Source of the DNA: a candidate division WWE3 bacterium
GTDB lineage: Bacteria > Patescibacteriota > WWE3 > UBA101185 > UBA10185
Direction: 5' to 3'
DNA: 44,112 nt
Assembly (NCBI GenBank): GCA_945897985.1
Contig: CAMDGN010000003.1
Location: 1 to 44,112, forward strand
Position numbers and translations under genes: made by a program
Part shown: in pieces, positions 1 to 37,354 of the stretch
Layout of the letters: the number at the start of each line of letters is the position of its first letter
Numbering within the stretch: position 1 is the stretch's first letter
Notes under the pieces: generated by a model
What the model saw: the letters and a program-made list of their open reading frames with translations, nothing else
Database searches by the model: none
What the model was told of the DNA's origin: nothing

Positions 1-221
1 TTATAAGCTCTATGAACAACGAATTCCTAAGACAAGAGCTTATTTCTGCCAAATTAAAGTTCGAGGGAGACGGCCCTTTTAAAGTTTATATCAAGGAAAA
101 AGACCTTCAAACTCTCTTTCAAAAACTAAAATCAAAACTCTCACTAATACAAGTTCACAACCCAACTTTAGAGCAGGTTTATCTAAAAATTATAGGAGAT
201 GCAAAACATGAGAACCTTTAA
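1..221 (+). CDS. ABC transporter ATP-binding subunit, C-terminal fragment (5' end outside window)
   Basis: Frame is open to the window edge; ends in PTLEQVYLKIIG, typical of DrrA/NodI-type ATPase C-termini; overlaps an ABC-2 permease. Confidence 0.75.
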   Translation, partial: ISSMNNEFLRQELISAKLKFEGDGPFKVYIKEKDLQTLFQKLKSKLSLIQVHNPTLEQVYLKIIGDAKHENL

Positions 222-987
222 TGCGATCTTTATTATCGCTTATAGAGATGTTTTAAAGCTCTTTAGAGACAAAAGAAGGTTGGTAAGCGGTTTAATATTC
301 CCAATCGCTTCTATTGCGATTTTGGGGTCTAGCTTAGATGCAAATTTATCTAAGACAATTGGTTTTAACTTTTTAGTCTTTGTTTATTTAGGAGTCATGG
401 TTCAAAATATGTTTTCATCCACCGCATCTGGAATTGCTTGGTTAATAGAGGATAGGCAAAATGATTTTTCTCAATCCTTTTTTGTAGCTCCAATTTCTAG
501 ATACGCAATTATTATCGGTAAGATTTTAGGGGAAAGTATTGTTTCTTATACCCAGATTGTAGGTTTGTTGGCAATTGGTTATTTACTAAATATTCCACTA
601 GATTTTGAAAAATTATTACTTCTTTTACCAGTTCTATTTTTGATCTGCTTCTTTGGAGGAGCTTTTGGGGTTTTAATTATGGCTAACTTTATGGATAAAA
701 GAAGTATTGACCAGGTTTTTCCTTTTTTTATCTTTCCACAATTTTTTCTTTCAGGTGTATTCACTCCAATGAAAAACCTGCCTGAGTACCTAATAATACT
801 ATCAAGAATCACCCCATTATTTTATGCAGTCGACTTTGTTAGAGGGATTTATTTTTTTGGTAAGCCTGAATACAGCGAAGTTGTAGTTTACAGCCCTTTA
901 ACCAATTTAATCGTAATGATTATTATGTTTTTCGCGTTTATCATTACCGGTACTTATATCTTTGTTAAATCAGAGAAAGAGAGATAA
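208..987 (+). CDS. ABC-2 type exporter permease
   Basis: About 6 hydrophobic segments; EDRQ..FFVAPISR..IIIGK, FLSGVFTP and TPLFYAVD motifs; AGGAG at 194-198 favours ATG 208 over 199. Confidence 0.9.
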   Translation: MRTFNAIFIIAYRDVLKLFRDKRRLVSGLIFPIASIAILGSSLDANLSKTIGFNFLVFVYLGVMVQNMFSSTASGIAWLIEDRQNDFSQSFFVAPISRYAIIIGKILGESIVSYTQIVGLLAIGYLLNIPLDFEKLLLLLPVLFLICFFGGAFGVLIMANFMDKRSIDQVFPFFIFPQFFLSGVFTPMKNLPEYLIILSRITPLFYAVDFVRGIYFFGKPEYSEVVVYSPLTNLIVMIIMFFAFIITGTYIFVKSEKER

Positions 988-996
988 AATACAGCC

Positions 997-1551
997 ATGT
1001 TTTTAAGAAACGTAAAAAATTCAATATTAGAGATTGTTGAGACTCTTTTGACCTCATTTATAGTACTAATGACTGTGTACGTAGTTGTTGCTTTTCCGGT
1101 CGGAGTCTCTGGATCCTCGATGTCGCCAAATTTAGAAACTGGGGATAGGTTACTGGTTGAAAAGGTGACTAGGCTATTTGAAGGCTATTCCAGAGGAGAT
1201 ATTGTAGTTTTGCATCCTCCTGAGAACGATTATATTGATTATGTCAAAAGAATTGTTGGGATGCCCGGAGACACAATCAAGATAGTTAACTGTAAGGTCA
1301 TGATTTCAAGAAATGATACTAAATTCTTATTAAATGAAGAACTTTATCTTTCCCCAGAGGTTTGCACTAATGGCGGAAAGTCCTTAGCAGAAGGTAGGAT
1401 TTACAATCTTAAAGTTAATGAGTATGTAGTTTTGGGCGATAACAGGGGTAATTCCTCCGATTCCAGGTACTTTGGGATTGTTTCAGAGGATAGAATTCAA
1501 GGTAAAGTGGTAGCAAGACTGTGGCCTTTTGAAAAAGCTAAGCTATACTAA
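997..1551 (+). CDS. lepB: Signal peptidase I
   Basis: N-terminal TM; SGSSMSP (catalytic Ser), YVKRIVG (catalytic Lys), GDNRGNSSDSR. Confidence 0.95.
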   Translation: MFLRNVKNSILEIVETLLTSFIVLMTVYVVVAFPVGVSGSSMSPNLETGDRLLVEKVTRLFEGYSRGDIVVLHPPENDYIDYVKRIVGMPGDTIKIVNCKVMISRNDTKFLLNEELYLSPEVCTNGGKSLAEGRIYNLKVNEYVVLGDNRGNSSDSRYFGIVSEDRIQGKVVARLWPFEKAKLY

Positions 1552-1662: not shown

Positions 1663-4600
1663 ATGAGATATAACCTAGCAAAAAATTCAAAGAAGTTCCC
1701 AATACCAAACTTATCAAGCTCACAAAAAGAGTCATACAACACCCTTATTAAAGAAGGTTTTAACGAATTATTAAAAGAATTCGGAACTATTATTGATGAA
1801 AGTGGTAGAGGCTGGGAATTAACTTTCTCAAACCCTACATTAGAAAAACCAGTTATTTCTTTGGAAGAGGCTATTAGAAAAGGAAAATCATACGAGGCTC
1901 CTTGGTATTTAACAGCTACACTTAAAGACGCAGTTAGAAGAATTGAAAAAGTTCAAAACATATACATGGGAGATATCCCATTGATGACTGATACAGGAAC
2001 TTTCATTATTAACGGAACTGAAAAAATAGTACAACACCAACTTGTAAGAGCTGAAGGATCCTACTTCACAGCTGATATCTCTCCAATGACAAGACAAATT
2101 TTAGGAGGAGTTAAAATCCAACCTAAAATTGGATCATGGGTTGAAATCGAAACTTCAAGAACTGGTGTTCTTTCTGTAAAAATTGACAAAAAAAGAAAAT
2201 TTACAGCCACAACTTTACTAAGAGTATTCGGAATTGAATCAGACGATCAAATCAGAGAATTATTCAAGGATGTTGACATTAATCCTGAAGTATCCTATAT
2301 CGAATCAACAATCGTTAAAGACCCTTCATCTTCAAAAGAAGAAGCTGCAATTGAAATCTTCAGAAAAATGAAACCAGGGGAGCCTTTAATTTTAGAAGAT
2401 GCTCAAAGACAAATCAATCAATTATTTTTCGACCCAAACAGATATTCACTTGGTAAAGTTGGAAGATTTAAAATCAATCAAAAATTTGGTTTAGATACAC
2501 CAAACGACGACATTCACAGATTACTCACTAAGGAAGACTTAGTAGAAATTATCAAATATATTATTAAAATTAACAACGGTTTAGGTCAACCTGATGATAT
2601 CGATCACTTAGGAAATAGAAGACTTAAATCAGTTGGTGAATTACTACAAATTGAAGTTAGAAGAGGTTATTTACAACTTAAGGCTAATATTTTAGAAAAA
2701 ATTTCTCTACAGCAAAGAGACTCTTTCCCAGAGCCTTCAGTTTTGATTTCAACCAAGCCTGTTTCATCAAAGATTCAATCTTTCTTTAATACTGGTAGAT
2801 CAACTGCTCTACACGAACAGTTCAACCCATTAACAAGACTTGACTACTTACGAAGAATGAATGCAGCTGGTCTTACTAAAGAAAGAGCTGGACTTGCGGT
2901 AAGAGACGTTCACTATTCACAATACGGTAAAATTTGTGCCGTTAGAACTCCAGAAGGTGCAAGCATTGGTCTTACAACTTTCTTATCTATCTACGCAAGA
3001 ATTAACGAGTATGGTTTCATTGAAACCCCTTACTTCGTACTTGATAAATCAGGAGACAAAGTAAAAGTTACTGATCAAGTAGTTTACCTTGCAGCTTACG
3101 ATGAAGATAATTCCTACATCATAGGGTATGGAGCTGAAATTGACGAAAAAGGATTCATTGTTGAAAAGCAAGTTCCTCTTAGAAAGAAAGGTCAATTTAT
3201 CCTTGGTGATCCAGCTCAAGCTGATTACATTGACGTTGACTCAGCTCAGGTTATCGGTATCACTGCAGGACTTATTCCTTTCATTCAATCTGACGACGTT
3301 ACTAGAACCTTGATGGCTTCATCCCAATTGAACCAAGCTGTTCCTCTGATTAAAGCTGACGCCCCATTAGTTGGAACTGGTATTGAAGAAGATATTGCTA
3401 AAAATTCTGAATGGATTCAATTTGCCGATAAAGATGGTGTTGTTGAATACGCTGACTCTTCTAAAGTTATTGTTAGATACGCAGGAGATAAAGAATTAAC
3501 AACTTATAACCCAACTAAGTTTAGAAAATCAAATCAAAATACAAACTATAACCAAAAAGTTACAGTTAATTCAGGTCAAAAAGTTAAAGCCGGAGAAATT
3601 CTTTTCGAAGGACCTTCAATCTCTAATGGTGAGTTAGCAATTGGTGCTAACGTTAGAGCTGCTTACATGGTATGGAGTGGTTATGAATTCGAAGACGGAA
3701 TTGTAATCTCTGACAGACTTGTAAAAGAAGACATTTTAACATCTATTAAAATTGAAATTAAAGAGTGTGAAGTTGTTGAAACTAAACTTGGAAATGAAGA
3801 GATCACAAGAGACATTCCTAACGTTTCTGAAGATTCACTTAGACACTTAGACAAACACGGTATCATCGCTGTTGGATCAGAAGTTTTCCCAGGAGATATC
3901 CTAGTTGGTAAAGTCGCACCTAAAGGTGAAGGAGATTTATCAGCTGAAGAAAGACTTCTACGAGCTATCTTCGGAGAAAAAGCTAAAGATGTCAGAAACA
4001 CCTCCCTATCTATGGATAACGGAGAAAAGGGAACTGTTATTGAGGTTAGAAGACTGTCTAGAAAAGATTCAAGCTTCAGCAAAAACGGTGTTATTGAAAA
4101 AGTTCAAGTTTTCATTGCACAACAAAAGAAGATTGAAATCGGAGACAAATTGGCTGGAAGACACGGAAACAAAGGAGTTATCTCCGCTATCGTTCCTGAA
4201 ATTGACATGCCTCACATGGAAGACGGAACTACAATAGATATTATCTTCTCAGCAGAATCTGTACTTAAGAGAATGAACTTAGGTCAAACCTTCGAAGCTC
4301 CTCTAGGACTTGCTGGAAGAAGATTAGGTAAAAGGTACACAGTTCCTGTTCTTAAAGAGATCGATAACGATATTATTGCTAAAGAACTTGAAGATGCCAA
4401 TATACCTGCTAACGGTAAAGTTAGATTGGTTGATGGTAGAACCGGTGAGTTCTTTGACAGACCAATTACTGTTGGAGAAACTTATATCCTAAAACTTCAC
4501 CACATGTCTGAGGATAAGATTCACGCAAGATCTGTTGGACCTTATAACTTGATCCACCAACAACCTCAACAAGGTAAACAAAACATGGGTGGTCAAAGAC

Positions 4601-4980
4601 TTGGAGAAATGGAAGTTTGGGCATTGCAAGCTTATTCAGCTGCAAACTTACTACAAGAAATGTTGACAATCAAATCAGACGATATGATTGGAAGAGATAA
4701 AGCTTATAGAGCAATTCTTGAAGGTCAACCAATTCCTGAGCCTACAGTTCCTGAATCATTCAAACTTCTTGTAAGAGAGTTGAACGGTCTAGGTCTAGGT
4801 ATCGATCCTTTAGAAGCTATTAGACAAGAAGTGGAAGATGTTGTTACTCCGGAAACACCTCTTGTTGAAGAAGAAAGCACATTGGCTGATGAAGATACAG
4901 CAGACAAAATAACTGAAGGTATGTCAGAAGTTGATGATAAAAAAGATGTTAATTTCGAAAATATGGAGGAAATAGAATAA
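1663..4980 (+). CDS. rpoB: RNA polymerase beta subunit
   Basis: DDIDHLGNRR, RDVH, GDKLAGRHGNKG, KLHHMSEDKIHARS, GGQRLGEMEVWAL, KSDD motifs. Confidence 0.99.
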   Translation: MRYNLAKNSKKFPIPNLSSSQKESYNTLIKEGFNELLKEFGTIIDESGRGWELTFSNPTLEKPVISLEEAIRKGKSYEAPWYLTATLKDAVRRIEKVQNIYMGDIPLMTDTGTFIINGTEKIVQHQLVRAEGSYFTADISPMTRQILGGVKIQPKIGSWVEIETSRTGVLSVKIDKKRKFTATTLLRVFGIESDDQIRELFKDVDINPEVSYIESTIVKDPSSSKEEAAIEIFRKMKPGEPLILEDAQRQINQLFFDPNRYSLGKVGRFKINQKFGLDTPNDDIHRLLTKEDLVEIIKYIIKINNGLGQPDDIDHLGNRRLKSVGELLQIEVRRGYLQLKANILEKISLQQRDSFPEPSVLISTKPVSSKIQSFFNTGRSTALHEQFNPLTRLDYLRRMNAAGLTKERAGLAVRDVHYSQYGKICAVRTPEGASIGLTTFLSIYARINEYGFIETPYFVLDKSGDKVKVTDQVVYLAAYDEDNSYIIGYGAEIDEKGFIVEKQVPLRKKGQFILGDPAQADYIDVDSAQVIGITAGLIPFIQSDDVTRTLMASSQLNQAVPLIKADAPLVGTGIEEDIAKNSEWIQFADKDGVVEYADSSKVIVRYAGDKELTTYNPTKFRKSNQNTNYNQKVTVNSGQKVKAGEILFEGPSISNGELAIGANVRAAYMVWSGYEFEDGIVISDRLVKEDILTSIKIEIKECEVVETKLGNEEITRDIPNVSEDSLRHLDKHGIIAVGSEVFPGDILVGKVAPKGEGDLSAEERLLRAIFGEKAKDVRNTSLSMDNGEKGTVIEVRRLSRKDSSFSKNGVIEKVQVFIAQQKKIEIGDKLAGRHGNKGVISAIVPEIDMPHMEDGTTIDIIFSAESVLKRMNLGQTFEAPLGLAGRRLGKRYTVPVLKEIDNDIIAKELEDANIPANGKVRLVDGRTGEFFDRPITVGETYILKLHHMSEDKIHARSVGPYNLIHQQPQQGKQNMGGQRLGEMEVWALQAYSAANLLQEMLTIKSDDMIGRDKAYRAILEGQPIPEPTVPESFKLLVRELNGLGLGIDPLEAIRQEVEDVVTPETPLVEEESTLADEDTADKITEGMSEVDDKKDVNFENMEEIE

Positions 4981-7900
4981 TGAAAAATATACAGGATCTT
5001 AAAAAATTTGAAGCGTTAAAAATTTATATTGCGTCAACTGACGACATTTTAAATTGGTCCTATGGTGAGATTACTAAACCTGAAACTATTAACTATAGAA
5101 CTTTTAAACCTGAAAAATTTGGTTTATTCGATGAAAGAATTTTCGGACCTCATAAATCTTACGAGTGTGCTTGTGGAAAATATAAAAGAATTAGATACAA
5201 AGGTGTAATTTGTGATAAATGTGGTGTTGAAGTAACTACCTCAAAAGTTAGAAGAGAAAGAATGGGCCACATTAAACTTGCTACTCCTGTTGCACACGTA
5301 TGGTTTTTTAAGGCAAACCCTTCAAAATTAGCTACATTATTAGACTTATCTCCTAGAAATCTTGAATCTGTTATTTATTTCTCATCTTTCATCGTAACTG
5401 AAGTTGAGAACTCTAAAAAACCTTCCGCAGTTACTAAAGTTGAAAAAGACTTGATGGCTGAGAAGGAGCTGTTAGTTAGAGAAATGGAACTTAAGATCGC
5501 TGACTTAGAAGCTACAAAAGGTGCCGAACTCAGAGCTAAAAAAGGCCTATCTGTAGAGGAAGCTTTAAACAAGCTACAAGGCCAAATACAAAAAATTAAA
5601 AACAATTATGCTGATAAACAAGCTGATGTTGAGTCTCAATACAAGATGTTTATTAAGAGAATTGAAAGCATGGATGTTCATACAATTATCCCTGATACAG
5701 AATATACAGTTTTGATGTCTTACCTACCATTGTTTGCAAAATTAAGCATTGGTGCTGAAGGAATTCAACAAATTCTTAAAGACTTAGACTTGAATAAAAT
5801 CGCTCTTGAGTTAAAAGAGGGTCTTGAGAATGCTAAAGAAGCTAAAGCTATCAAACTTCTTAAGAGATTAAAAGTTGTTGAAGGCTTCAGAAGATCAAGC
5901 ATTAACCCAGACAGAATGATTATGGAAGTAATTCCAGTAATCCCTTGTGACTTAAGACCAATCGTTCCTATTGAAGGTGGAAGAGCTTTCTCATCTGACT
6001 TAAACGACTTATATAGAAGAGTTATCAATAGAAATAACCGATTGAAGAGACTTATGGATCTTGGTGCCCCTGAGATTATCTTAAGAAACGAAAAAAGAAT
6101 GTTACAAGAAGCTGTTGACGGTTTATTTGACTCTTCAAAACAAAGAGTAAGTTCAAAAGCAGCTAGAGGTCCTCAAGCAGCTAAAAAACAATTAAAGTCA
6201 CTTGCTGACCTACTAAAAGGTAAATCTGGACGATTCAGAGGTAACCTTCTTGGTAAAAGAGTGGACTACTCAGGAAGATCCGTTATCGTTAACGGCCCTG
6301 ATTTGAAGATTAATGAGTGTGGTATTCCTAGAGAAATGGCTCTTGAGTTATTCAAACCAATGGTTCTAAGAGAACTTATGGTTAGAGGTAATCCAAATGA
6401 AAGATCAGCTAAGGCTGTACTTGATTCAAGAGTTGGTGAAGTTTATGACGTATTGGAAGAGGTTGTAAAAGGCCATCCAGTTCTTCTAAACAGAGCTCCT
6501 ACACTTTGGAGACTTGGTATCCAAGCTTTCTATCCAAAATTAATTGATGGAAACGCAATCAGATTACACTTATGTGTTGCTTCTGGTTATAACGCGGACT
6601 TTGACGGTGACACTATGTCTGTTCACGTTCCTCTATCCGAAAAAGCTATTGATGAAGCTAAGAATTTAATGATTTCAACCAATAACTTGTTGAAACCTTC
6701 AGACGGTACTCCAGTTGCTAACCCAGCTAAGGAAATGATCTGGGGATGTTTCTACCTAACTAAGATGGATGAAACAATGCCTGAATACTCAAAAGTATTC
6801 TCAAACTTTGACGAAGCAAGGTACATTTTAGATTCAACTTCTGAAATTGATGTACACCAACCAATCAAAGTAAGACACAATGGGGAAATTATTAGAACAA
6901 CTGTTGGAAGAATTATTTTTAACGAAATTATCCCTTCAGATGTGTTTGAAAATAAATCTTTTGACAAAAAAGCTATCAACAAATCAATTCTTGACGCCTT
7001 TAAAATCGTTGATAATGAAAGACTTGGTCAATTTATTGACGACCTAAAGAATATCGGTTTGAAATACGGAACCAGTTCTGGTCAATCAGCTTCTGCTAGG
7101 GATATTGTCTCTCCAGAATCTCTTGATATTGTTATTTCTGAAGCTAAGCTAAAAATGGAAGAGCTAAACAAAGCTCTAAAAAGAGGTCTTGCTACTCAAC
7201 AAAACGTTTCCCAAAGAGCCAACGAGATCTGGAAAGATGCGTTCGCAAAAATCCAAAGTGATTTATGGAACAACTTATCAGCTACTAACCCTGTTAAAGA
7301 GTTGATCGAATCAGGATCTTCAAAAGCTACAAAAGATTCTATTACTCAGATTGCTGGAATGAAAGGTCAGATCGTTGACACATCAGGTAAAACTGTTGAT
7401 TTCCCAATCTTAGGAAATTATATTTCAGGACTTTCAGGTTTTGAATACTTCTTAAGCTCTAAATCAGCTAGAAAAGGACTTTCAGACCGAGCTCTAAAGA
7501 CTGCTGACTCCGGTTATTTAACTAGAAGATTAGTAGACGTTGCTCAAGACGTTATTGTTAGACAAGAAGATTGTGGAACAACAGACGGATTTGCAATGGA
7601 AGTTACAGATAAAGGTTTCTCTCTTGATTTCGAGTCAAGAATGGAAGGAAGATTTGTAGCTAAAGATGTTAAAGACGGAAGCAAAGTTGTGATTAAAGCT
7701 GGAACAATGTTAACCGCTGAGATTATCAAAGAGATTAAATCTCTTGGTATCAAGGAGATATCAATTAGATCACCACTATCTTGTCAGACAAATAGAGGAA
7801 TCTGTCAAAAATGCTTTGGAATAGATTTAATGACTAAGGAAATGATAAAGATTGGTACTCCAATTGGAGTTGCTTCCGCACAATCTATCGGAGAGCCAGG

Positions 7901-8660
7901 AACTCAGTTAACAATGAGAACATTCTGGGGAGGAGGAGTTGCCGGAGGAGCTGACATTACTGTTGGTCTTGAAAGAGTTGAAGAAATTTTCGAGGCTAGA
8001 ATTCCAAAAGCTCAAGCAACCCTTGCTGAAATTGACGGTAAAGTTAAGATTATAGAGACCGGAGATGATAGAAAGATTATTATTCTACCTAAGAACAAGA
8101 CTGAGGAAGAAGAAGCTGAGTATATTATCGATACAGTTATGAAGATTATCGTTGAAGATGGTCAAGAAGTTGTAAAGGGTGACAAATTAACAGACGGACA
8201 CAAAGACCTAACTGAGTTACAAAGACTAGTTGGAGTTGCTGGAACTAAGAAGTACATCGTAGATGACGTTGTTAAGATGTATTCATCACAAGGTGTTGCT
8301 TTAAACGACAAATATGTGGAAGTTATTGTAAGACAAATGTTTAATCACGTTAGAGTTGAGGATTCAGGAGACACAACATTTATGGTTGGTGAAACTGTAA
8401 CAAGAGCAGGATTTAAAGAAGAGAATGAAAAGATTATTGCTTCAGGTGGAAGACCTGCAATTGGAAACGTTATCTTACTTGGAATCAAGAGAGCTGCTAT
8501 CGGATCAGATTCATTCTTATCCGCTGCATCATTTGAGCAAACATCGCTAGTATTGACCGATGCTGCTGCTTCTGGTAAAGTTGACTCGCTAATCGGATTG
8601 AAGGAAAACGTAATTATAGGAAGACTAATTCCAGTAGGTGATTACGTAAAGAAAATATAA
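4980..8660 (+). CDS. rpoC: RNA polymerase beta' subunit
   Basis: KPETINYRT, Zn finger [42 protein letters not shown]. Confidence 0.99.
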
Positions 8661-8661
8661 T

Positions 8662-9081
8662 ATGCCAACATTTAACCAGTTGTTGAAAACAAAAAGAAAA
8701 TCGAAAAAACTTAAATCAAAAGCTCCGGCTCTAGGTGAAATTTTTAACTCAAAAAAGAAGGTTTCTAAGAAATTAATCTCTCCTTTCAAGAGAGGTGTTT
8801 GTTTACAAGTTAAAACACAAACTCCTAAGAAACCTAACTCAGCTTTAAGAAAAGTTGCTAGAGTTAGACTTTCAAACGGTAAAGAGCTAACTGCTTACAT
8901 CCCAGGAGAAGGACATAACTTACAAGAGCACTCTGTTGTAATGATCAGAGGTGGAAAAGTTAAAGACTTGCCAGGTATTAAATATACAATTGTTAGAGGT
9001 ACTTTCGACTTACAAGGAGTTAAAAATAGAAAAACTTCAAGATCAGTTTACGGTACTAAGAAAGAGGTAGTTAAAAAATAA
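8662..9081 (+). CDS. rpsL: 30S protein uS12
   Basis: [26 protein letters not shown]. Confidence 0.99.
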
Positions 9082-28756: not shown

Positions 28757-29347
28757 GTGATAATTATAAAAATAAAGCTTAAATTAAGAAGATTAATTTC
28801 TTATTTACTTGCTGGAGTGTTAGTTGGGGGAGTTGCATATGCTGCAATTAGTAATAAAATTTTCATGAAAGGAACATCGTTTTCAACTTCAACCGTGCAA
28901 TTAAAATTCTTGAAAAATTTAAGTCAGGATTTGAGTACTGCAAATCTTACTTCGGAGCTAATTGGTATTTCTTTTGAAGGTATTTTAAATGGTTGGCAAC
29001 AGGACTATCCTGTTAAGATCACAAATACGTCAACTAAGAACATGAATGTTTGGACTTACGCTAATTACCAAACAGATCAAGACCCAGCATCGCTACGATA
29101 TTCACTATATGTAGAACTGCTTCCTTGGAACGACCTTAATAATGACGGCGTAGTAGATTCTGGAGAAGAAGGGGCTTCTCTTGGTAAAAAGTCATTTGTT
29201 AAATGGAAAACAGAAGGGTTTGACTTAGGGAGTCTTGAAGGAAATAAAGCTTATGGATACATCCTGAGATTTTCGTCTTTGGACATTACAGATGCAAAAC
29301 AAGGGGCTTCGGGTATCTTTGATTTCGAGTTCGGCGTGCTTCAGTAG
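28757..29347 (+). CDS. Secreted TasA/CalY (camelysin)-like protein; start codon uncertain
   Basis: Basic N-terminus, hydrophobic stretch, GGVAYA-A cleavage site; TSFSTSTVQL, VKITNT and QG..F.FEF...Q recall TasA/CalY; DLNNDG Ca-binding-like loop. Confidence 0.6.
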   Translation: MIIIKIKLKLRRLISYLLAGVLVGGVAYAAISNKIFMKGTSFSTSTVQLKFLKNLSQDLSTANLTSELIGISFEGILNGWQQDYPVKITNTSTKNMNVWTYANYQTDQDPASLRYSLYVELLPWNDLNNDGVVDSGEEGASLGKKSFVKWKTEGFDLGSLEGNKAYGYILRFSSLDITDAKQGASGIFDFEFGVLQ

Positions 29348-30725: not shown

Positions 30726-31304
30726 ATGTTAAAAGAATTATTCATTTCAGAAGTAAGAGTCAATTTAATTAAATTTTTGGTTAAAAACTATGATCAAGAG
30801 TTTCACGTCAGGGCTTTAGTTAGAGAGCTAGGTGTTGAGATCAACGCAATAAGAAGAGAACTAGAAAAATTAACTAAACTTGATATTTTAATCAAAAGGC
30901 CTTGGGGGAATAAAATTTTTTACAAAATGAATATTCTTAGCCCTTTTTATCCGGATTTTGTTTCGTTGATCTACAAAGAAGAGGGCATATCCCTGAAATT
31001 TCTAAAAGCAAAAGATAATTTGGGTAACATCAAATTTTTAGCTTTGTCTAAAGAATTCTGTAAAGGTAGGCAGGCCTCAGCTTTAGAGCTTGATTTGCTT
31101 ATTGTGGGAAACCCAAATCTTAATGTTTTAGAAAATATTATTTCTAAATTTGAGCAAGAAGAGAGGGAAATTAATTATTCAATTATTTCCGAAGAAGAGT
31201 TTATTCAAAGAAAAAGAAAGTTTGATACATTTGTAATTAAATTTTTAATTCAACCAAGGATCATGATTTTTGGAGATGAGTTTGAAATTACAAGGATAGC
31301 CTAA
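30726..31304 (+). CDS. Winged-HTH protein with degenerate nucleotidyltransferase-like C-terminal domain
   Basis: HVRALVRELG..INAIRRELEKL..GNKIFY wHTH; ELDLLIVG and REINYSI NTase-like strands. Confidence 0.7.
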   Translation: MLKELFISEVRVNLIKFLVKNYDQEFHVRALVRELGVEINAIRRELEKLTKLDILIKRPWGNKIFYKMNILSPFYPDFVSLIYKEEGISLKFLKAKDNLGNIKFLALSKEFCKGRQASALELDLLIVGNPNLNVLENIISKFEQEEREINYSIISEEEFIQRKRKFDTFVIKFLIQPRIMIFGDEFEITRIA

Positions 31305-35179: not shown

Positions 35180-36197
35180 AATCTCGCCTAGTAAAAAATT
35201 GCTTGTAAATCTATTTCTCCTTTACACGAAAGGTCTCCATTTTTTTGATTTACAGATTAGAACCGTTCTTTTAGTTGTTCTTACAACGGCTTTTTCTTAC
35301 ATTCTTTGGAATGCTAGGGGAATGAACCTTGAGGATTTCATGAAAATTACCAGAAGAAAGCCGATTTTGGCTTTATCTGAAACTGTTCCGTTTAATGTCC
35401 TTAATTCAAGTTCTCAATTAGCTTCCAATGAGAATAAGGTTATTCCAAGCACCATCCCAGCCAGAAAAATTCTTAAACTAAAACCTACAAATATACAAGC
35501 TAAGAGTTACATTGTTTATGATCTAGATGACAGTAGATTGGTAGCTGAGAAGAATAAAACTTTGCAGCTCCCTCCTGCTTCGTTAGTTAAACTACTTTCT
35601 GTAATGGTTTTTACTGATAACTTAAATTTAGATAATTACACTTTGGTTCCACAAGAATGTACTCAAGTTAATGGTCAAAAAGCTGGTTTAAAGTCCGGTG
35701 AGAAAATTTCTGTTAAAGATTTATTATTCTCTTCTCTAATATATTCTGCTGCTGATTCCGTATGCACTCTTTCTAGAATTAATTCTGATCGAGATCTACG
35801 TTTTTTTAATAACTATGCAGAATCAATCGGTATGAAAAATTCTAATTTTACTAACTACATTGGACTTGATTTTGAAGATAACGTTACAACTTCAGAAGAC
35901 ATTTTGAATATGACACTTAGCTTTATCAAAAAAGATTTATTTAACAGTATCGTGAAGTTAAAAAGCTACCAAATGGAGAACGGGAGGGTTATATATAATA
36001 CTAATAAAATGTTATTTGAGAACCAGTATTCGATTGGAATTAAAACAGGTACCACTGGGGGAGCTAATGAGAACTTAATCTATAGGTATAAAAATGACGA
36101 TCTTCAAAGGGATGTTTTAGTTGTAATCTTAAATTCGTCCGACCGCTATCAGGATTCAAGAAATATAATCTCAAATCTTTATCTAGATGTTGAGTAG
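35172..36197 (+). CDS. D-alanyl-D-alanine carboxypeptidase family (peptidase S11) protein
   Basis: N-terminal TM; PASLVK (SxxK), GM..SNF.N..GLD, KTG; SxN position reads SAAD. Confidence 0.88.
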   Translation: MIEISPSKKLLVNLFLLYTKGLHFFDLQIRTVLLVVLTTAFSYILWNARGMNLEDFMKITRRKPILALSETVPFNVLNSSSQLASNENKVIPSTIPARKILKLKPTNIQAKSYIVYDLDDSRLVAEKNKTLQLPPASLVKLLSVMVFTDNLNLDNYTLVPQECTQVNGQKAGLKSGEKISVKDLLFSSLIYSAADSVCTLSRINSDRDLRFFNNYAESIGMKNSNFTNYIGLDFEDNVTTSEDILNMTLSFIKKDLFNSIVKLKSYQMENGRVIYNTNKMLFENQYSIGIKTGTTGGANENLIYRYKNDDLQRDVLVVILNSSDRYQDSRNIISNLYLDVE

Positions 36198-37354
36198 TAT
36201 TTAGGGTTTAGCGCTGGGGTATAGATTGTAATTTTGCCCTTTTCTCCTGAAGCTAGCTCCATAGACCCCTTGAATACGTAAATTGGCTGGATATTAGTAT
36301 TAATTGAAGTATCATCAAAGTTATCATAATAAGACACTTCAACACTTTCTACTGAAATAGTCTTAATATTTGTGTTTTCTTTATTTGGAACAAATCTAAA
36401 TTCTGAATTATTGACTTTAATCTCTGAAATAACAAAATTCTTGGCTTTCAACTGGCTTTCAACTACTGTTGGGATAGGGTTTAAGTCAAACAGATCCCCA
36501 TTATATGAGAGTTTATAATCAATTTTATTGAGTTTTATAAAGGGGAATCGATAGTTTTTAAAAGAATTTTCGATTTCCGGCCTTAGACTAGCGATAAAGA
36601 AATAAATCTGGGGAAAATCGTATCTCTTTGAAACTACTTTTTTGTTCTCAATGCTTCGATAGATCTTTAAATAAGAAAGTTCTGAACTAATATTATTACT
36701 TTCTACAAGATAGTTGCTTTCGAATCTCAGGAAAGTTGGTTCTAAAATTAAGCTATTAACCTCTTCTTTGGTAAATCTTCCGGTTAGACCTAGAAAATTT
36801 AATGCAAAATTTCCTGGAATATTGTTTGAGATAAAGTTTCCTCCATTTACATAGCTCTTCAAGAAGGCAATTTCATTACCTTGAGGAAATTGAGACATTT
36901 TTTTATTTACTTTATTAATTTCGAATTGAAGTCCGTTTTTACTCCAGACGAATTTATTACTAATATCACCATTATCTACTAGATTAAGATCGTCATACCC
37001 TGATTCAAAGGCAATTCTTTTTGCGGTAGGAAGGTAGTCGATATCTTCAAGCTTTGAAAAGTTATATTCATACAGTTTGATTTGTTTGGATTCTAAATTC
37101 TTCCATTGAGAATCTGGATTTCCAATATAAAGGATAGTTGTATTAGAGAGGTTGTAGTTTAGAGCCTGATCCTGAGTAAAGTTGATTGGGCTTACATAGT
37201 TTGCAATAACTTCTTTTTGAGTTGCTTTTTGGGCTTGGGAGGCGTAGTCGGATATAATGGGTGAGATATAAATAAATATCGCTACAACTATCACTACTCC
37301 TATTAAGACATTAATCATTTTTTTTATATAGCTAGATACTTCGTAAAGCTTCAT
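36179..37354 (-). CDS. Hypothetical membrane-anchored extracytoplasmic protein
   Basis: 391-aa ORF, single N-terminal TM, C-terminal IQPIYVFKG strand; extended -10 6 nt upstream of the ATG. Confidence 0.8.
   Translation of the reverse strand: MKLYEVSSYIKKMINVLIGVVIVVAIFIYISPIISDYASQAQKATQKEVIANYVSPINFTQDQALNYNLSNTTILYIGNPDSQWKNLESKQIKLYEYNFSKLEDIDYLPTAKRIAFESGYDDLNLVDNGDISNKFVWSKNGLQFEINKVNKKMSQFPQGNEIAFLKSYVNGGNFISNNIPGNFALNFLGLTGRFTKEEVNSLILEPTFLRFESNYLVESNNISSELSYLKIYRSIENKKVVSKRYDFPQIYFFIASLRPEIENSFKNYRFPFIKLNKIDYKLSYNGDLFDLNPIPTVVESQLKAKNFVISEIKVNNSEFRFVPNKENTNIKTISVESVEVSYYDNFDDTSINTNIQPIYVFKGSMELASGEKGKITIYTPALNPKYYSTSR

What the first reader, a model, noticed from the sequence alone, without database searches (positions are those of the whole stretch)
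2782..2988. Rifamycin pocket of RpoB rebuilt in all four clusters, with a 3-aa fork-loop-2 deletion
Seen: cluster I reads FFNTGRSTALHEQFNPLTRLDYLRRMNA---AGLTKERAG versus canonical [40 protein letters not shown]. In E. coli numbering (from memory) this gives Q510R, L511S, Q513A, D516E, H526Y, S531N and loss of LGP (533-535). Cluster II (ICAVRTPEGASIGLTTF) gives N568S, I572T, S574F. The N-cluster V146 is Q (2032-2034) and cluster III R687 is N (3331-3333). Known: 513, 516, 526, 531, 572, 574, 146 and 687 are classical Rif-resistance positions. Inference: intrinsic rifamycin insensitivity and an altered RNA/hybrid path, while flanking motifs (NPL, RR, RDVH, TPEG) are kept.
Basis: partly seen in the sequence, partly recalled or inferred. 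Interest (0 to 1): 0.75.

Follow-up and report, generated by a model that had tools for sequence, protein, structure and literature searches.

The report
Rebuilt rifamycin pocket in WWE3 RpoB
A small group of uncultivated, tiny-genome bacteria has an RNA polymerase whose rifampicin-binding pocket is heavily altered and shortened, so it is probably naturally insensitive to that class of antibiotics, and this change is part of a wider reshaping of the enzyme's interior.

Summary
Window 1663-4980 is the genome's only rpoB.

The rebuild is not a general Patescibacteria or WWE3 trait. It defines one monophyletic sub-lineage: 22 of 120 nearest cluster representatives. The other 98 keep a canonical cluster I.

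At sites at least 95% conserved in those 98, the pocket is changed at 12 of 24 sites, against 44 of 379 elsewhere in RpoB and 58 of 474 in RpoC.

Five substitutions (514L, 516E, 526Y, 531N, 574F) belong to a published cross-species Rif-resistance panel. The deletion overlaps laboratory Rif-resistant deletions. Rifamycin insensitivity is therefore well predicted but not measured.

Some changes are class-wide background: S574 to aromatic, R687 lost, R540K, often F514L.

The pocket is one of several clade-specific hot spots (beta' lid, rudder, trigger-loop base, beta switch-3-like stretch, sigma finger). Beta, beta' and sigma are accelerated; alpha and translation proteins are not. I rate this a new variant of a known kind.

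The parts
1663..4980 (+). rpoB, RNA polymerase beta subunit, 1105 aa. It is the only copy found in the 584-kb genome.
   Evidence: ORF; six Pfam RpoB domains; PDB beta subunits at E down to 5.6e-295; one match in G000; catalytic motifs intact.
2032..2037 (+). N-terminal Rif cluster: V146Q and S147H (residues Q124, H125).
   Evidence: Q and H occur in 22 of 22 clade members. The 39 outgroup rows shown (28 loci, 18 proteins) have V or I followed by N or S.
2788..2865 (+). Rebuilt Rif cluster I (E. coli 507-532): NTGRSTALHEQFNPLTRLDYLRRMNA. Changes are G507N, Q510R, L511S, S512T, Q513A, F514L, D516E, N518F, H526Y and S531N. N519, P520, L521, R528 and R529 are kept.
   Evidence: For the contact residues, the outgroup has Q513 in 97/98, H526 in 96/98 and S531 in 97/98; the clade has 0/22, 0/22 and 5/22.
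2863..2868 (+). Junction of the 3-residue in-frame deletion at the start of fork loop 2. E. coli L533-G534-P535 are missing and G536 is A.
   Evidence: Gap. All 22 clade members have a gap: 16 of 3 aa and 6 of 4 aa. None of 150 diverse RpoB representatives has a gap of 2 aa or more here.
2866..2898 (+). Remaining fork loop 2 / CRE-pocket segment (E. coli 536-546): AGLTKERAGLA.
   Evidence: The boundaries of fork loop 2 (533-546) are taken from PMC4499132.
2935..2982 (+). Rif cluster II region (E. coli 559-574): CAVRTPEGASIGLTTF. Changes are P560A, P567A, N568S, I572T, N573T and S574F.
   Evidence: S574 is already Y in canonical WWE3 relatives.
3316..3333 (+). Cluster III region (E. coli 682-687): ASSQLN, with R687N.
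   Evidence: R687 is S in the outgroup, so the loss of R is class-wide and not specific to this clade.
4564..4587 (+). Switch-3-like stretch (E. coli 1258-1265): PQQGKQNM in place of the PLGGKAQF shared by E. coli and the WWE3 outgroup.
   Evidence: In 147 diverse representatives L1259 is L in 132 and G1260 is G in 135, and Q is not among the five commonest residues at 1259 or 1263. The name 'switch 3' for this stretch is recalled.
4980..8660 (+). rpoC, beta' subunit, 1226 aa. It overlaps the rpoB stop codon by one base.
5946..5990 (+). beta' lid region: [15 protein letters not shown]. Changes are P247C, L255I, F260A and A261F. The GGRFAT tip shared by E. coli and the outgroup reads GGRAFS here.
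   Evidence: Lid residues V253, L255, D256 and R259 are named in PMC5386594.
6120..6227 (+). beta' rudder / switch-2 region, with a 2-residue clade-specific insertion plus R314K, M330L and Q335S.
   Evidence: Rudder R322 is named in PMC5386594. The element boundaries are recalled.
7950..7973 (+). beta' trigger-loop C-terminal base: ADITVGLE in place of KDITQGLP (K1132A, P1139E).
   Evidence: The element name is recalled.

Best explanation
The window carries the single, catalytically intact housekeeping rpoB of a Patescibacteria genome. Its nearest named homologues are 'candidate division WWE3'.

On the stem of one WWE3 sub-lineage the rifamycin pocket was rebuilt:
- The residues that bond or pack against rifampicin were replaced: Q510 to R, Q513 to A, H526 to Y, S531 to N, I572 to T.
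- V146Q and S574F line the pocket with different side chains.
- Three residues at the start of fork loop 2 were deleted (E. coli L533-P535, including the almost invariant G534). This loop forms one wall of the pocket.

Each of these classes of change alone makes model bacteria rifampicin-resistant. The enzyme is therefore predicted to be insensitive to rifamycins, and probably to other ligands of the same pocket. This step is inferred.

What is shown: the rebuild is part of a burst limited to the cleft-forming subunits (beta, beta', sigma). Alpha and translation proteins did not take part. The same burst changed the beta' lid tip, the rudder, the trigger-loop base, a switch-3-like beta stretch and the sigma finger. 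Within the clade the pocket now evolves 1.4 to 2.7 times faster than in its relatives.

What I infer: this polymerase changed the way it handles the sigma finger, the 5' end of nascent RNA and the hybrid. That change released the usual constraint on the pocket residues. Whether inhibitor pressure or functional retuning came first is open.
For: - Identity and single copy.
- True E. coli numbering of every change.
- Clade-specific: 22 of 120 nearest cluster representatives carry the rebuild and 98 are canonical. The clade is monophyletic with support 1.0 on a tree built without the pocket columns. Its stem of 0.31 substitutions per site is the longest internal branch within WWE3.
- Excess over background: 12/24 against 44/379; 10/22 against 46/381 with the strict clusters; RpoC background 58/474.
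- Rarity: P0002 deviates at 24 of 53 conserved positions in E. coli 505-575. The median for 150 diverse RpoBs is 6; only 2 of 150 reach 24 or more, and none has a gap of 2 aa or more. A search with the pocket segment alone found only clade members plus one canonical protein, 18 hits of 74 candidates.
- Resistance logic from papers:
  - 526Y, 531N, 516E, 514L and 574F are panel mutations in PMC12337354.
  - S531N gives higher-level and I572T low-level resistance in E. coli, and G534S/S574F has MIC above 1500 (PMC7073797).
  - Salmonella delta532-534 has MIC 500 against 12 mg/L (PMC6269455).
  - E. coli delta531-533, delta535-542 and delta533-546 are Rif-resistant (PMC4499132).
  - Rif contacts are Q510, Q513, F514, S531 and R540 (PMC13404664).
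- Catalytic motifs are intact.
- The pocket is identical across members 95-100% identical overall, so it is under selection and not decaying.
- RNAP-specific acceleration, given as clade-to-outgroup distance over outgroup-to-outgroup distance: RpoB 1.38-1.50, RpoC 1.35, sigma 1.65. Comparators: RpoA 1.14, EF-G 1.12-1.14, EF-Tu 1.23, S7 1.13, S12 1.03, S4 1.20, S11 1.31 (7 genomes), L17 1.18 (2 genomes).
- Other hot spots.
Against: - No assay exists. Insensitivity rests on transferring results from E. coli, Salmonella and M. tuberculosis to a protein only about 45% identical to E. coli RpoB.
- Part of the 'rebuild' is class-wide background: Y574, S687, K540, and L514 in 30/98. By the published panel criterion the whole WWE3 class already scores as 'intrinsically resistant' through 574Y.
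- In the sister subclade the strict-cluster excess is not significant: P0018, 6/22 against 54/381, p=0.09. That subclade keeps D516, S531 and N568.
- The pocket is not the only hot spot. A window over the flap region (E. coli 909-1064) ties with it at 12 of 25 changed conserved sites.
- Other Patescibacteria families have their own variant pockets, with H526 as I, D, Q or N and Q513 as A, R or S. Pocket variation as such is not rare in this phylum.
- The sigma-finger comparison rests on only two clade genomes.
- The AlphaFold2 model has pLDDT below 50 exactly at 378-434, so it gives no structural support.
- S12 shows no streptomycin-type change, so there is no sign of general antibiotic-target remodelling.
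Confidence: 0.75

Rival explanations
1. Inhibitor arms race as the driver. The pocket was rebuilt, and keeps turning over, because these bacteria meet natural products that bind the rifamycin pocket, made by hosts or neighbours. Resistance is the selected function, and the other RNAP changes are compensatory.
For: - Five substitutions are identical to cross-species resistance mutations.
- None of the 22 members has regained Q513, H526, Q510, I572 or the deleted residues.
- Contact positions keep changing within the clade: 526 is Y/N/F/I, 513 is A/T/N/I, 531 is N/T/S.
- Laboratory Rif-resistant deletions are costly and are compensated by rpoB and rpoC changes (PMC6269455), which fits a burst in beta and beta'.
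- The authors of PMC12337354 attribute natural resistance clusters to rifamycin-like compounds in the habitat.
Against: - I have no information on habitat, host or exposure.
- S12 is canonical.
- The sigma-finger, lid-tip and trigger-loop-base changes are not known compensatory sites.
- The faster but still constrained evolution of the pocket is equally expected under relaxed constraint.
Confidence: 0.35
2. Functional retuning or a compensatory cascade, with resistance as a by-product. A change in how this RNAP initiates and holds the hybrid removed the need for the canonical pocket residues. Examples are a shorter fork loop 2 / CRE pocket, an altered sigma finger, lid and switch 3, and possibly different promoter escape, open-complex stability or non-canonical 5' capping. 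The pocket residues then drifted to whatever fits.
For: - Acceleration is limited to beta, beta' and sigma.
- Clade-specific changes fall at residues identical between E. coli and the WWE3 outgroup in the lid, the switch-3-like stretch and the trigger-loop base.
- The sigma-finger region is changed.
- Fork loop 2 forms the CRE pocket, and its deletion changes open-complex stability, elongation and termination (PMC4499132).
- Rif-pocket residues tune NAD+ capping and sigma region 3.2 gates bulky initiators (PMC5737558).
- S531 substitutions change the transition from initiation to elongation (PMC5737076).
- One outgroup lineage (P0092, G006) has a 3-aa deletion with an otherwise canonical pocket. 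The deletion can therefore exist on its own.
Against: - No functional data exist.
- This reading does not explain why the replacements so often match known resistance residues.
- The flap hot spot and general long-branch effects could inflate the impression of coordination.
- The element boundaries for switch 3, the rudder and the trigger-loop base are recalled and not measured on a structure.
Confidence: 0.4
3. Plain background divergence of a fast-evolving lineage. On this reading the pocket is no more changed than the rest of the protein.
For: The clade sits on a long branch: clade-to-outgroup identity is 58% against 70% among outgroup members. A flap-region window is as diverged as the pocket window.
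Against: - Pocket sites are changed at 45-50%, against 12% at equally conserved sites in RpoB and RpoC.
- Translation proteins and alpha are barely accelerated.
Confidence: 0.05
4. Artefact, pseudogene or second specialised rpoB copy, as in the resistant rpoB2 of some actinomycetes.
For: None found.
Against: - G000 has one rpoB match.
- The frame is intact, the gene is translationally coupled to rpoC and the catalytic motifs are kept.
- The same architecture occurs in 22 cluster representatives from several sources.
Confidence: 0.02

Closest known systems
Naturally rifampicin-resistant RpoBs with target-site substitutions: Spirochaetia (531N), Mollicutes (526N/Q), Bifidobacteriales and many Actinomycetes (PMC12337354)
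   Same: A chromosomal, single-copy housekeeping rpoB carries lineage-fixed substitutions at classical resistance positions. 531N and a replaced H526 are shared.
   Different: Those lineages mostly carry one or two panel substitutions. In the part of Dataset S3 that I read (part 1 of 7) the most was three. None was scored for deletions, and the paper states that every species in its set has G at 534. Here five panel substitutions occur together with further non-panel changes at contacts (Q510R, Q513A, I572T, V146Q) and a 3-residue deletion.
Laboratory Rif-resistant in-frame deletions in rpoB 530-535 and fork loop 2: Salmonella delta532-534 (PMC6269455); E. coli delta531-533, delta535-542 and delta533-546 (PMC4499132)
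   Same: An in-frame loss of about three residues at the boundary between cluster I and fork loop 2. In the laboratory it raises the rifampicin MIC (500 against 12 mg/L) and perturbs transcription.
   Different: The laboratory alleles are costly (relative fitness 0.46) and recent. Here the deletion is fixed in a whole clade, at 3 or 4 aa, and sits in a co-adapted background. Its phenotype is untested.
RpoB of rifamycin producers (Amycolatopsis mediterranei, A. rifamycinica, Actinomadura rifamycini: 522D + 531N in Dataset S3 of PMC12337354)
   Same: 531N is combined with a further cluster I change as a natural means of target-site insensitivity.
   Different: The producers keep Q513, H526 and fork loop 2, as far as the listed mutations show. 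A 584-kb genome is unlikely to hold a biosynthetic gene cluster, but I did not search for one.
Variant pockets of other Patescibacteria families (unnamed families f15, f19, f29; loci L122-L126)
   Same: The same phylum also has natural replacements at 513, 526, 529 and 531.
   Different: Those families keep the full-length G-P-G-G fork loop 2. They are family-wide and old, whereas this is a recent rebuild inside an otherwise canonical class.

Membership tests
Bacterial RNA polymerase beta subunit (RpoB), housekeeping copy | RpoB domain architecture and similarity to solved beta subunits | tested here: met
   Six Pfam Rpb2/RpoB domains; PDB beta subunits at E down to 5.6e-295.
Bacterial RNA polymerase beta subunit (RpoB), housekeeping copy | Catalytic and nucleotide-binding motifs present (E. 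coli R678, E813/D814, K1065/K1073, H1237) | tested here: met
   All are conserved in the alignment to E. coli.
Bacterial RNA polymerase beta subunit (RpoB), housekeeping copy | Single copy, in an operon with rpoC | tested here: met
   One match in G000, which is 92.3% complete. rpoC starts at 4980 and overlaps the rpoB stop codon.
Intrinsically rifamycin-resistant RpoB (target-site type) | Carries at least one substitution of a curated cross-species resistance panel | tested here: met
   514L, 516E, 526Y, 531N and 574F are all listed as panel mutations in Dataset S3 of PMC12337354 and are present in P0002.
Intrinsically rifamycin-resistant RpoB (target-site type) | Measured insensitivity of the enzyme or organism to rifamycins | not testable with these tools
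   The lineage is uncultivated and there is no assay. No rifamycin ligand is offered by the complex predictor, and the fold is of low confidence at the pocket.
Intrinsically rifamycin-resistant RpoB (target-site type) | The change is fixed in a lineage rather than sporadic | tested here: met
   All 22 clade representatives lack Q510, Q513, H526 and I572 and carry the deletion. The clade is monophyletic.
Second, resistant rpoB paralogue (rpoB2 type of Nocardia, Nonomuraea and Actinomadura) | Two rpoB genes in one genome, one sensitive-type and one resistant-type | tested here: not met
   Only one rpoB match in G000 and one in G019.
Rif-resistant in-frame deletion alleles of rpoB (region 530-535) | In-frame deletion inside E. 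coli 530-535 | tested here: met
   A 3-residue gap at 533-535, give or take one or two positions, in three independent alignments.
Rif-resistant in-frame deletion alleles of rpoB (region 530-535) | Raised rifampicin MIC caused by the deletion | not testable with these tools
   Known only for the Salmonella and E. coli alleles.

The most novel reading that the evidence does not exclude
This WWE3 sub-lineage carries a naturally re-engineered RNA polymerase cleft. Fork loop 2 / the CRE pocket is shortened. The lid tip, switch-3-like stretch, rudder, trigger-loop base and sigma finger are changed, all at residues otherwise shared from E. coli to WWE3. Together these alter how the enzyme starts RNA chains and separates the hybrid. 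The 'universal' rifamycin pocket becomes dispensable, and multi-site rifamycin insensitivity follows as a by-product. It would be a natural experiment showing which 'invariant' cleft residues can be replaced as a set.
Probability: 0.3. Interest if true: 0.7.

Novelty: new variant of a known kind. Interest (0 to 1): 0.5.

Why it matters
- Natural target-site insensitivity to rifamycins is known and common; a published survey predicts it for 8% of 18,127 species. That survey's text does not mention Patescibacteria and did not score deletions.
- This clade goes further than any entry I saw there. It combines five panel substitutions, further replaced contact residues and loss of a fork-loop-2 segment that includes a glycine reported as invariant.
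- If the prediction holds, single-substitution panels undercount and under-describe natural resistance in uncultivated phyla. It would also show that the rifamycin pocket is less indispensable than its conservation suggests.
- The co-occurring changes in the lid, switch-3-like stretch, trigger-loop base and sigma finger offer a ready-made set of co-adapted substitutions. They could be used to study why these elements are normally invariant.
- The finding has no clinical bearing. These are environmental, uncultivated bacteria.

Tried and rejected
- **Structure.** AlphaFold2 on a 56-row alignment gave mean pLDDT 75.8 but below 50 at 378-434 (the pocket) and 948-1004. It is uninformative there, so I ran no fold search and made no structural claim.
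- **Donor for the pocket segment (HGT).** A search with residues 366-445 alone gave 18 hits of 74 candidates. Seventeen are clade members and one (P0122) is a canonical, unrelated RpoB. There is no donor. The search needs shared 5-residue words, and five clade members (P0018-P0022) were themselves missed.
- **Loss of a transcription factor as the cause.** None of these separates the clade from its relatives.
  - GreA is present in G000 and G019, and in 40 of 41 genomes.
  - The CarD/Mfd RID domain was found in 0 of 41.
  - RelA/SpoT was not found in G000 (92.3% complete) or G019 (94%). It is also missing in 12 genomes with canonical pockets; 27 of 41 have it.
- **General antibiotic-target remodelling.** S12 keeps the usual lysines and proline at the streptomycin positions.
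- **Organism names.** The 'WWE3' label therefore rests on names that sources give to outgroup homologues. No clade member carries an organism name.
- **Published panel.** Dataset S2 of PMC12337354 turned out to be a reference list. I did not see the full 57-mutation panel, so whether 513A, 572T, 511S, 510R or 146Q are panel members is unknown to me.
- **Earlier notes of this scan.** held nothing on this feature.
- **Literature.** A search for rifampicin + rpoB + Patescibacteria gave 5 papers; from the listing alone, none is on this topic. 'Candidate phyla radiation' + RNA polymerase + rifampicin gave 0 papers.
Full report
**What is there.** Window 1663-4980 (+) is a 1105-aa ORF. It has six RpoB/Rpb2 Pfam domains and matches solved bacterial beta subunits at E down to 5.6e-295. 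rpoC (4980-8660) follows and overlaps the stop codon by one base. The genome (G000) has 584,298 bases in 37 contigs and is 92.3% complete. It has one rpoB match.

**Check in true E. coli numbering.** I fetched E. coli K-12 rpoB from NC_000913 and aligned it with 30 relatives and with 120 database homologues.
The codon coordinates were verified.
- The 3-residue gap at 533-535 appears in both MAFFT alignments and in all three HMMER alignments to solved structures printed. Its placement is ambiguous by one or two residues.
- The catalytic motifs (R678, E813/D814, K1065/K1073, H1237) are intact.

**Whose feature is it?**
- Among 40 genomes of the same family, order or class, only G019 (72% identical) shares a rebuilt pocket. 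The others (51-61% identical) read [36 protein letters not shown], which is close to E. coli.
- In the 5.8-billion-protein collection the 120 best hits fall into two groups. One is a graded series of 22 cluster representatives (P0002-P0023, 100% down to 65% identity). The other is a plateau of 98 at about 56-61% identity, several of them named 'candidate division WWE3' or 'Patescibacteria group' by their sources.
- All 22 carry the rebuild. Sixteen have a 3-residue gap and six (P0018-P0023) a 4-residue gap.
- On a tree built from 974 columns, leaving out the pocket regions, the 22 are monophyletic with support 1.0. Their stem of 0.31 substitutions per site is the longest internal branch within WWE3. 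It ranks 2 of 119; rank 1 is the branch to E. coli.
- A search with residues 366-445 alone returned 18 hits of 74 candidates: 17 clade members and P0122, which is canonical. I found no donor for the segment.

- At sites at least 95% conserved in the 98 outgroup sequences, P0002 differs at 12 of 24 sites in the resistance clusters (146, 507-535, 563-574, 687). Elsewhere it differs at 44 of 379 (Fisher p=1.2e-5).
- With the strict classical clusters the figures are 10 of 22 against 46 of 381 (p=2e-4).
- RpoC gives an independent background of 58 of 474, or 12%.
- Against my reading: for the sister subclade (P0018) the strict-cluster excess is 6 of 22 against 54 of 381, p=0.09.
- Also against it: in a sliding window of 25 conserved sites the cluster I window (E. 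coli 494-537) only ties for first place with a flap-region window (909-1064), both at 12 changes.

**What is class-wide and not specific.** The WWE3 outgroup already has Y574, S687, L527 and R562. It has K540 in 86 of 98, L514 in 30 of 98 and R510 in 9 of 98. Two outgroup proteins have N526. The WWE3 family f4 has G516 in 3 of the 4 genomes examined. One outgroup lineage (P0092, G006/L016) has its own 3-residue deletion in an otherwise canonical pocket.

The clade-specific changes at contact positions are:

| Position | Outgroup (of 98) | Clade (of 22) |
|---|---|---|
| Q513 | 97 | 0 |
| H526 | 96 | 0 |
| I572 | 96 | 0 |
| S531 | 97 | 5 |
| Q510 | 78 | 0 |
| residue 533 | present | deleted in 22 |
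| R529 | 98 | kept in 22 |

**How unusual among bacteria?**
- I took 150 diverse RpoB representatives, the best hits in a 50%-identity library. I scored 53 positions of E. coli 505-575 that are at least 70% conserved.
- The median number of deviations is 6 and the maximum 27. P0002 has 24, P0018 has 21, a canonical WWE3 protein has 9 and E. coli has 0. Two of the 150 reach 24 or more.
- None of the 150 has a gap of two or more residues at 528-540, and three have a 1-residue gap. G534 is G in 147 of 150.
- Across 401 Patescibacteria genomes, 393 matched a canonical WWE3 pocket query. G000 was the weakest of the 25 WWE3 genomes in that sample.
- Some other families score lower still (f19, f29, f15). 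Five examples show their own variants, with H526 as I, D, Q or N, Q513 as A, R or S, and R529 as K or F. All five keep a full-length fork loop 2. Pocket variation is therefore recurrent in the phylum, but the deletion and the size of the rebuild are special.

**What the changes should do (from papers; I read passages unless stated).**
- PMC13404664: rifamycin B contacts Q510, Q513, S531 and R540 and the F514 main chain. Fork loop 2 closes the pocket.
- PMC7073797: H526, R529, S531, L533 and I572 contact rifampicin. In E. coli S531N resists the higher concentrations and I572T only low ones. S574F and S574Y act at low level alone, but G534S/S574F reaches MIC above 1500 ug/ml.
- PMC6269455: deletions within 530-535 give resistance. 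Salmonella delta532-534 has MIC 500 against 12 mg/L and relative fitness 0.46, compensated by rpoC changes or a mutation upstream of dksA.
- PMC4499132: fork loop 2 (533-546) and residues 443-451 form the pocket for the non-template +2G. Delta533-546 destabilises open complexes, slows elongation and raises termination. The paper also treats the rpoB deletion alleles it studied as rifampicin-resistant. Delta531-533 and delta535-542 are known resistant alleles.
- PMC12337354 (abstract, sections 5 and 7, passages, Dataset S3 part 1 of 7 and a term search):
  - A 57-substitution panel was screened in 18,127 species, and 8% carry at least one.
  - 531N occurs in 565 species, 526N in 546 and 574Y in 183.
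  - In Dataset S3, 526Y appears in 5 rows, 574F in 2 and 516E in 20. 514L is listed for Liberibacter and Cardinium.
  - Only point mutations were considered, and 'Patescibacteria' occurs 0 times in the text.
- P0002 thus carries five panel substitutions at once (514L, 516E, 526Y, 531N, 574F) and lacks the 534 region. By the same criterion the whole WWE3 class already scores through 574Y.
- PMC5737076: N531 occurs in rifamycin producers and spirochetes, and most substitutions at S531 decrease the transition from initiation to elongation.

**Evolutionary mode.**
- The pocket is not decaying. Members 95-100% identical overall have identical pocket segments. Within the clade, region 505-575 remains more conserved than the rest of the protein: 74% against 67%, 78% against 73% and 90% against 85% identity in three divergence bins.
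- It is nevertheless 1.4 to 2.7 times more divergent than in outgroup pairs of the same overall divergence.
- Among sites at least 95% conserved in the outgroup, 11 of 23 pocket sites vary inside the clade, against 87 of 379 elsewhere (p=0.01; 18 dereplicated members).

**A wider RNAP event.**
- I took the clade-to-outgroup distance relative to the outgroup-to-outgroup distance.
  - Cleft-forming subunits: RpoB 1.50 (16 family genomes) or 1.38 (protein sets), RpoC 1.35, and sigma regions 2-4 1.65.
  - Comparators: EF-G 1.12-1.14, EF-Tu 1.23, S7 1.13, S12 1.03, RpoA 1.14, S4 1.20, S11 1.31 (7 genomes) and L17 1.18 (2 genomes).
- In RpoC the clade changes the lid. The GGRFAT tip, shared by E. 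coli and the outgroup, reads GGRAFS, GGRPFS or GGKIMS. P247C and L255I also occur there.
- The clade also adds two residues to the rudder region and changes the trigger-loop base from KDITQGLPRVE to [11 protein letters not shown].
- PMC5386594 names lid residues V253, L255, D256 and R259. It describes the lid, switch 3 and rudder as the elements that end the hybrid at -9.
- In RpoB, QQPLGGKAQFGGQRF is identical in E. coli and the outgroup but reads QQPQQGKQNMGGQRL here. In 147 diverse RpoBs L1259 is L in 132 and G1260 is G in 135.
- The sigma-finger region reads AQKVGKEEDTTLADFIADS in place of the outgroup's ETPVGKEEDTRLKEFIEDE, but only two clade genomes were available.
- The names and boundaries of switch 3, the rudder and the trigger-loop base are recalled, not measured.

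**Reading.** I am confident the feature is real, clade-specific and beyond background, and that the enzyme is very probably rifamycin-insensitive. The driver is open.
- An inhibitor arms race would explain the resistance-like identity of the replacements and the absence of reversion.
- A retuning of initiation and hybrid handling would explain the restriction to beta, beta' and sigma, and the changes outside any rifamycin contact. Resistance would then be a by-product.
- PMC5737558 shows that pocket residues tune NAD+ capping and that sigma region 3.2 gates bulky initiators. This gives one concrete function that could have shifted.

**What led nowhere.** The AlphaFold2 model is below pLDDT 50 at the pocket. 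Tests for factor loss did not discriminate. S12 is canonical. Organism names for the clade could not be looked up. Earlier notes of this scan held nothing relevant.

Noticed in passing
L021 (G017:C1:606118-612291); also P0247, P0255, P0326, P0379, P0380, P0385: In G017 the open frame through rpoB is 2330 aa. Several of the 150 representatives are 2246-2794 aa long. This suggests fused rpoB-rpoC genes in some relatives. My own ORF listing of L021 gave 1104 aa for the longest ORF, so the point is unresolved.
   Followed up: no
G014:C5:382327-385614: The rpoB match in relative G014 contains 10 stop codons (3 TGA, 4 TAG, 3 TAA). It is either a degraded copy or an assembly problem.
   Followed up: no
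L016 (G006:C52) and protein P0092: An outgroup WWE3 lineage has its own 3-residue fork-loop-2 deletion (RRLSA---GGLSKERAG) in an otherwise canonical pocket. Like the window's subclade it has A at 532 and G at 544. This is a possible convergent event and a natural 'deletion-only' control.
   Followed up: partly
L122-L126 (G042, G200, G046, G056, G207): Three other Patescibacteria families carry family-wide variant Rif pockets. H526 is I, D, Q or N, Q513 is A, R or S, and R529 is K or F; family f29 reads DPVTSPES in place of CPIETPEG.
   Followed up: partly
L129-L131 (G029, G316, G230): WWE3 family f4 has D516G, a classical resistance position, in 3 of 4 genomes examined, with an otherwise canonical cluster I.
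   Followed up: no
window 199-1551: The genes just upstream of rpoB are an ABC-2 transporter permease and a signal peptidase I, not the usual rplJ-rplL.
   Followed up: no
whole genomes G000 and G019: No RelA/SpoT domain was found in either clade genome (92.3% and 94% complete), whereas 27 of 41 relatives have one. No CarD/Mfd RID domain was found in any of the 41 WWE3 genomes.
   Followed up: partly
window 8662-9081: Ribosomal protein S12 has a 13-residue insertion near its N terminus relative to E. coli. Its streptomycin-position residues are canonical.
   Followed up: no
window 28757-29347 (+), 30726-31304 (+), 36179-37354 (-): Three ORFs of 196, 192 and 391 aa have no Pfam match at E 1e-5 or better.
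   Followed up: no
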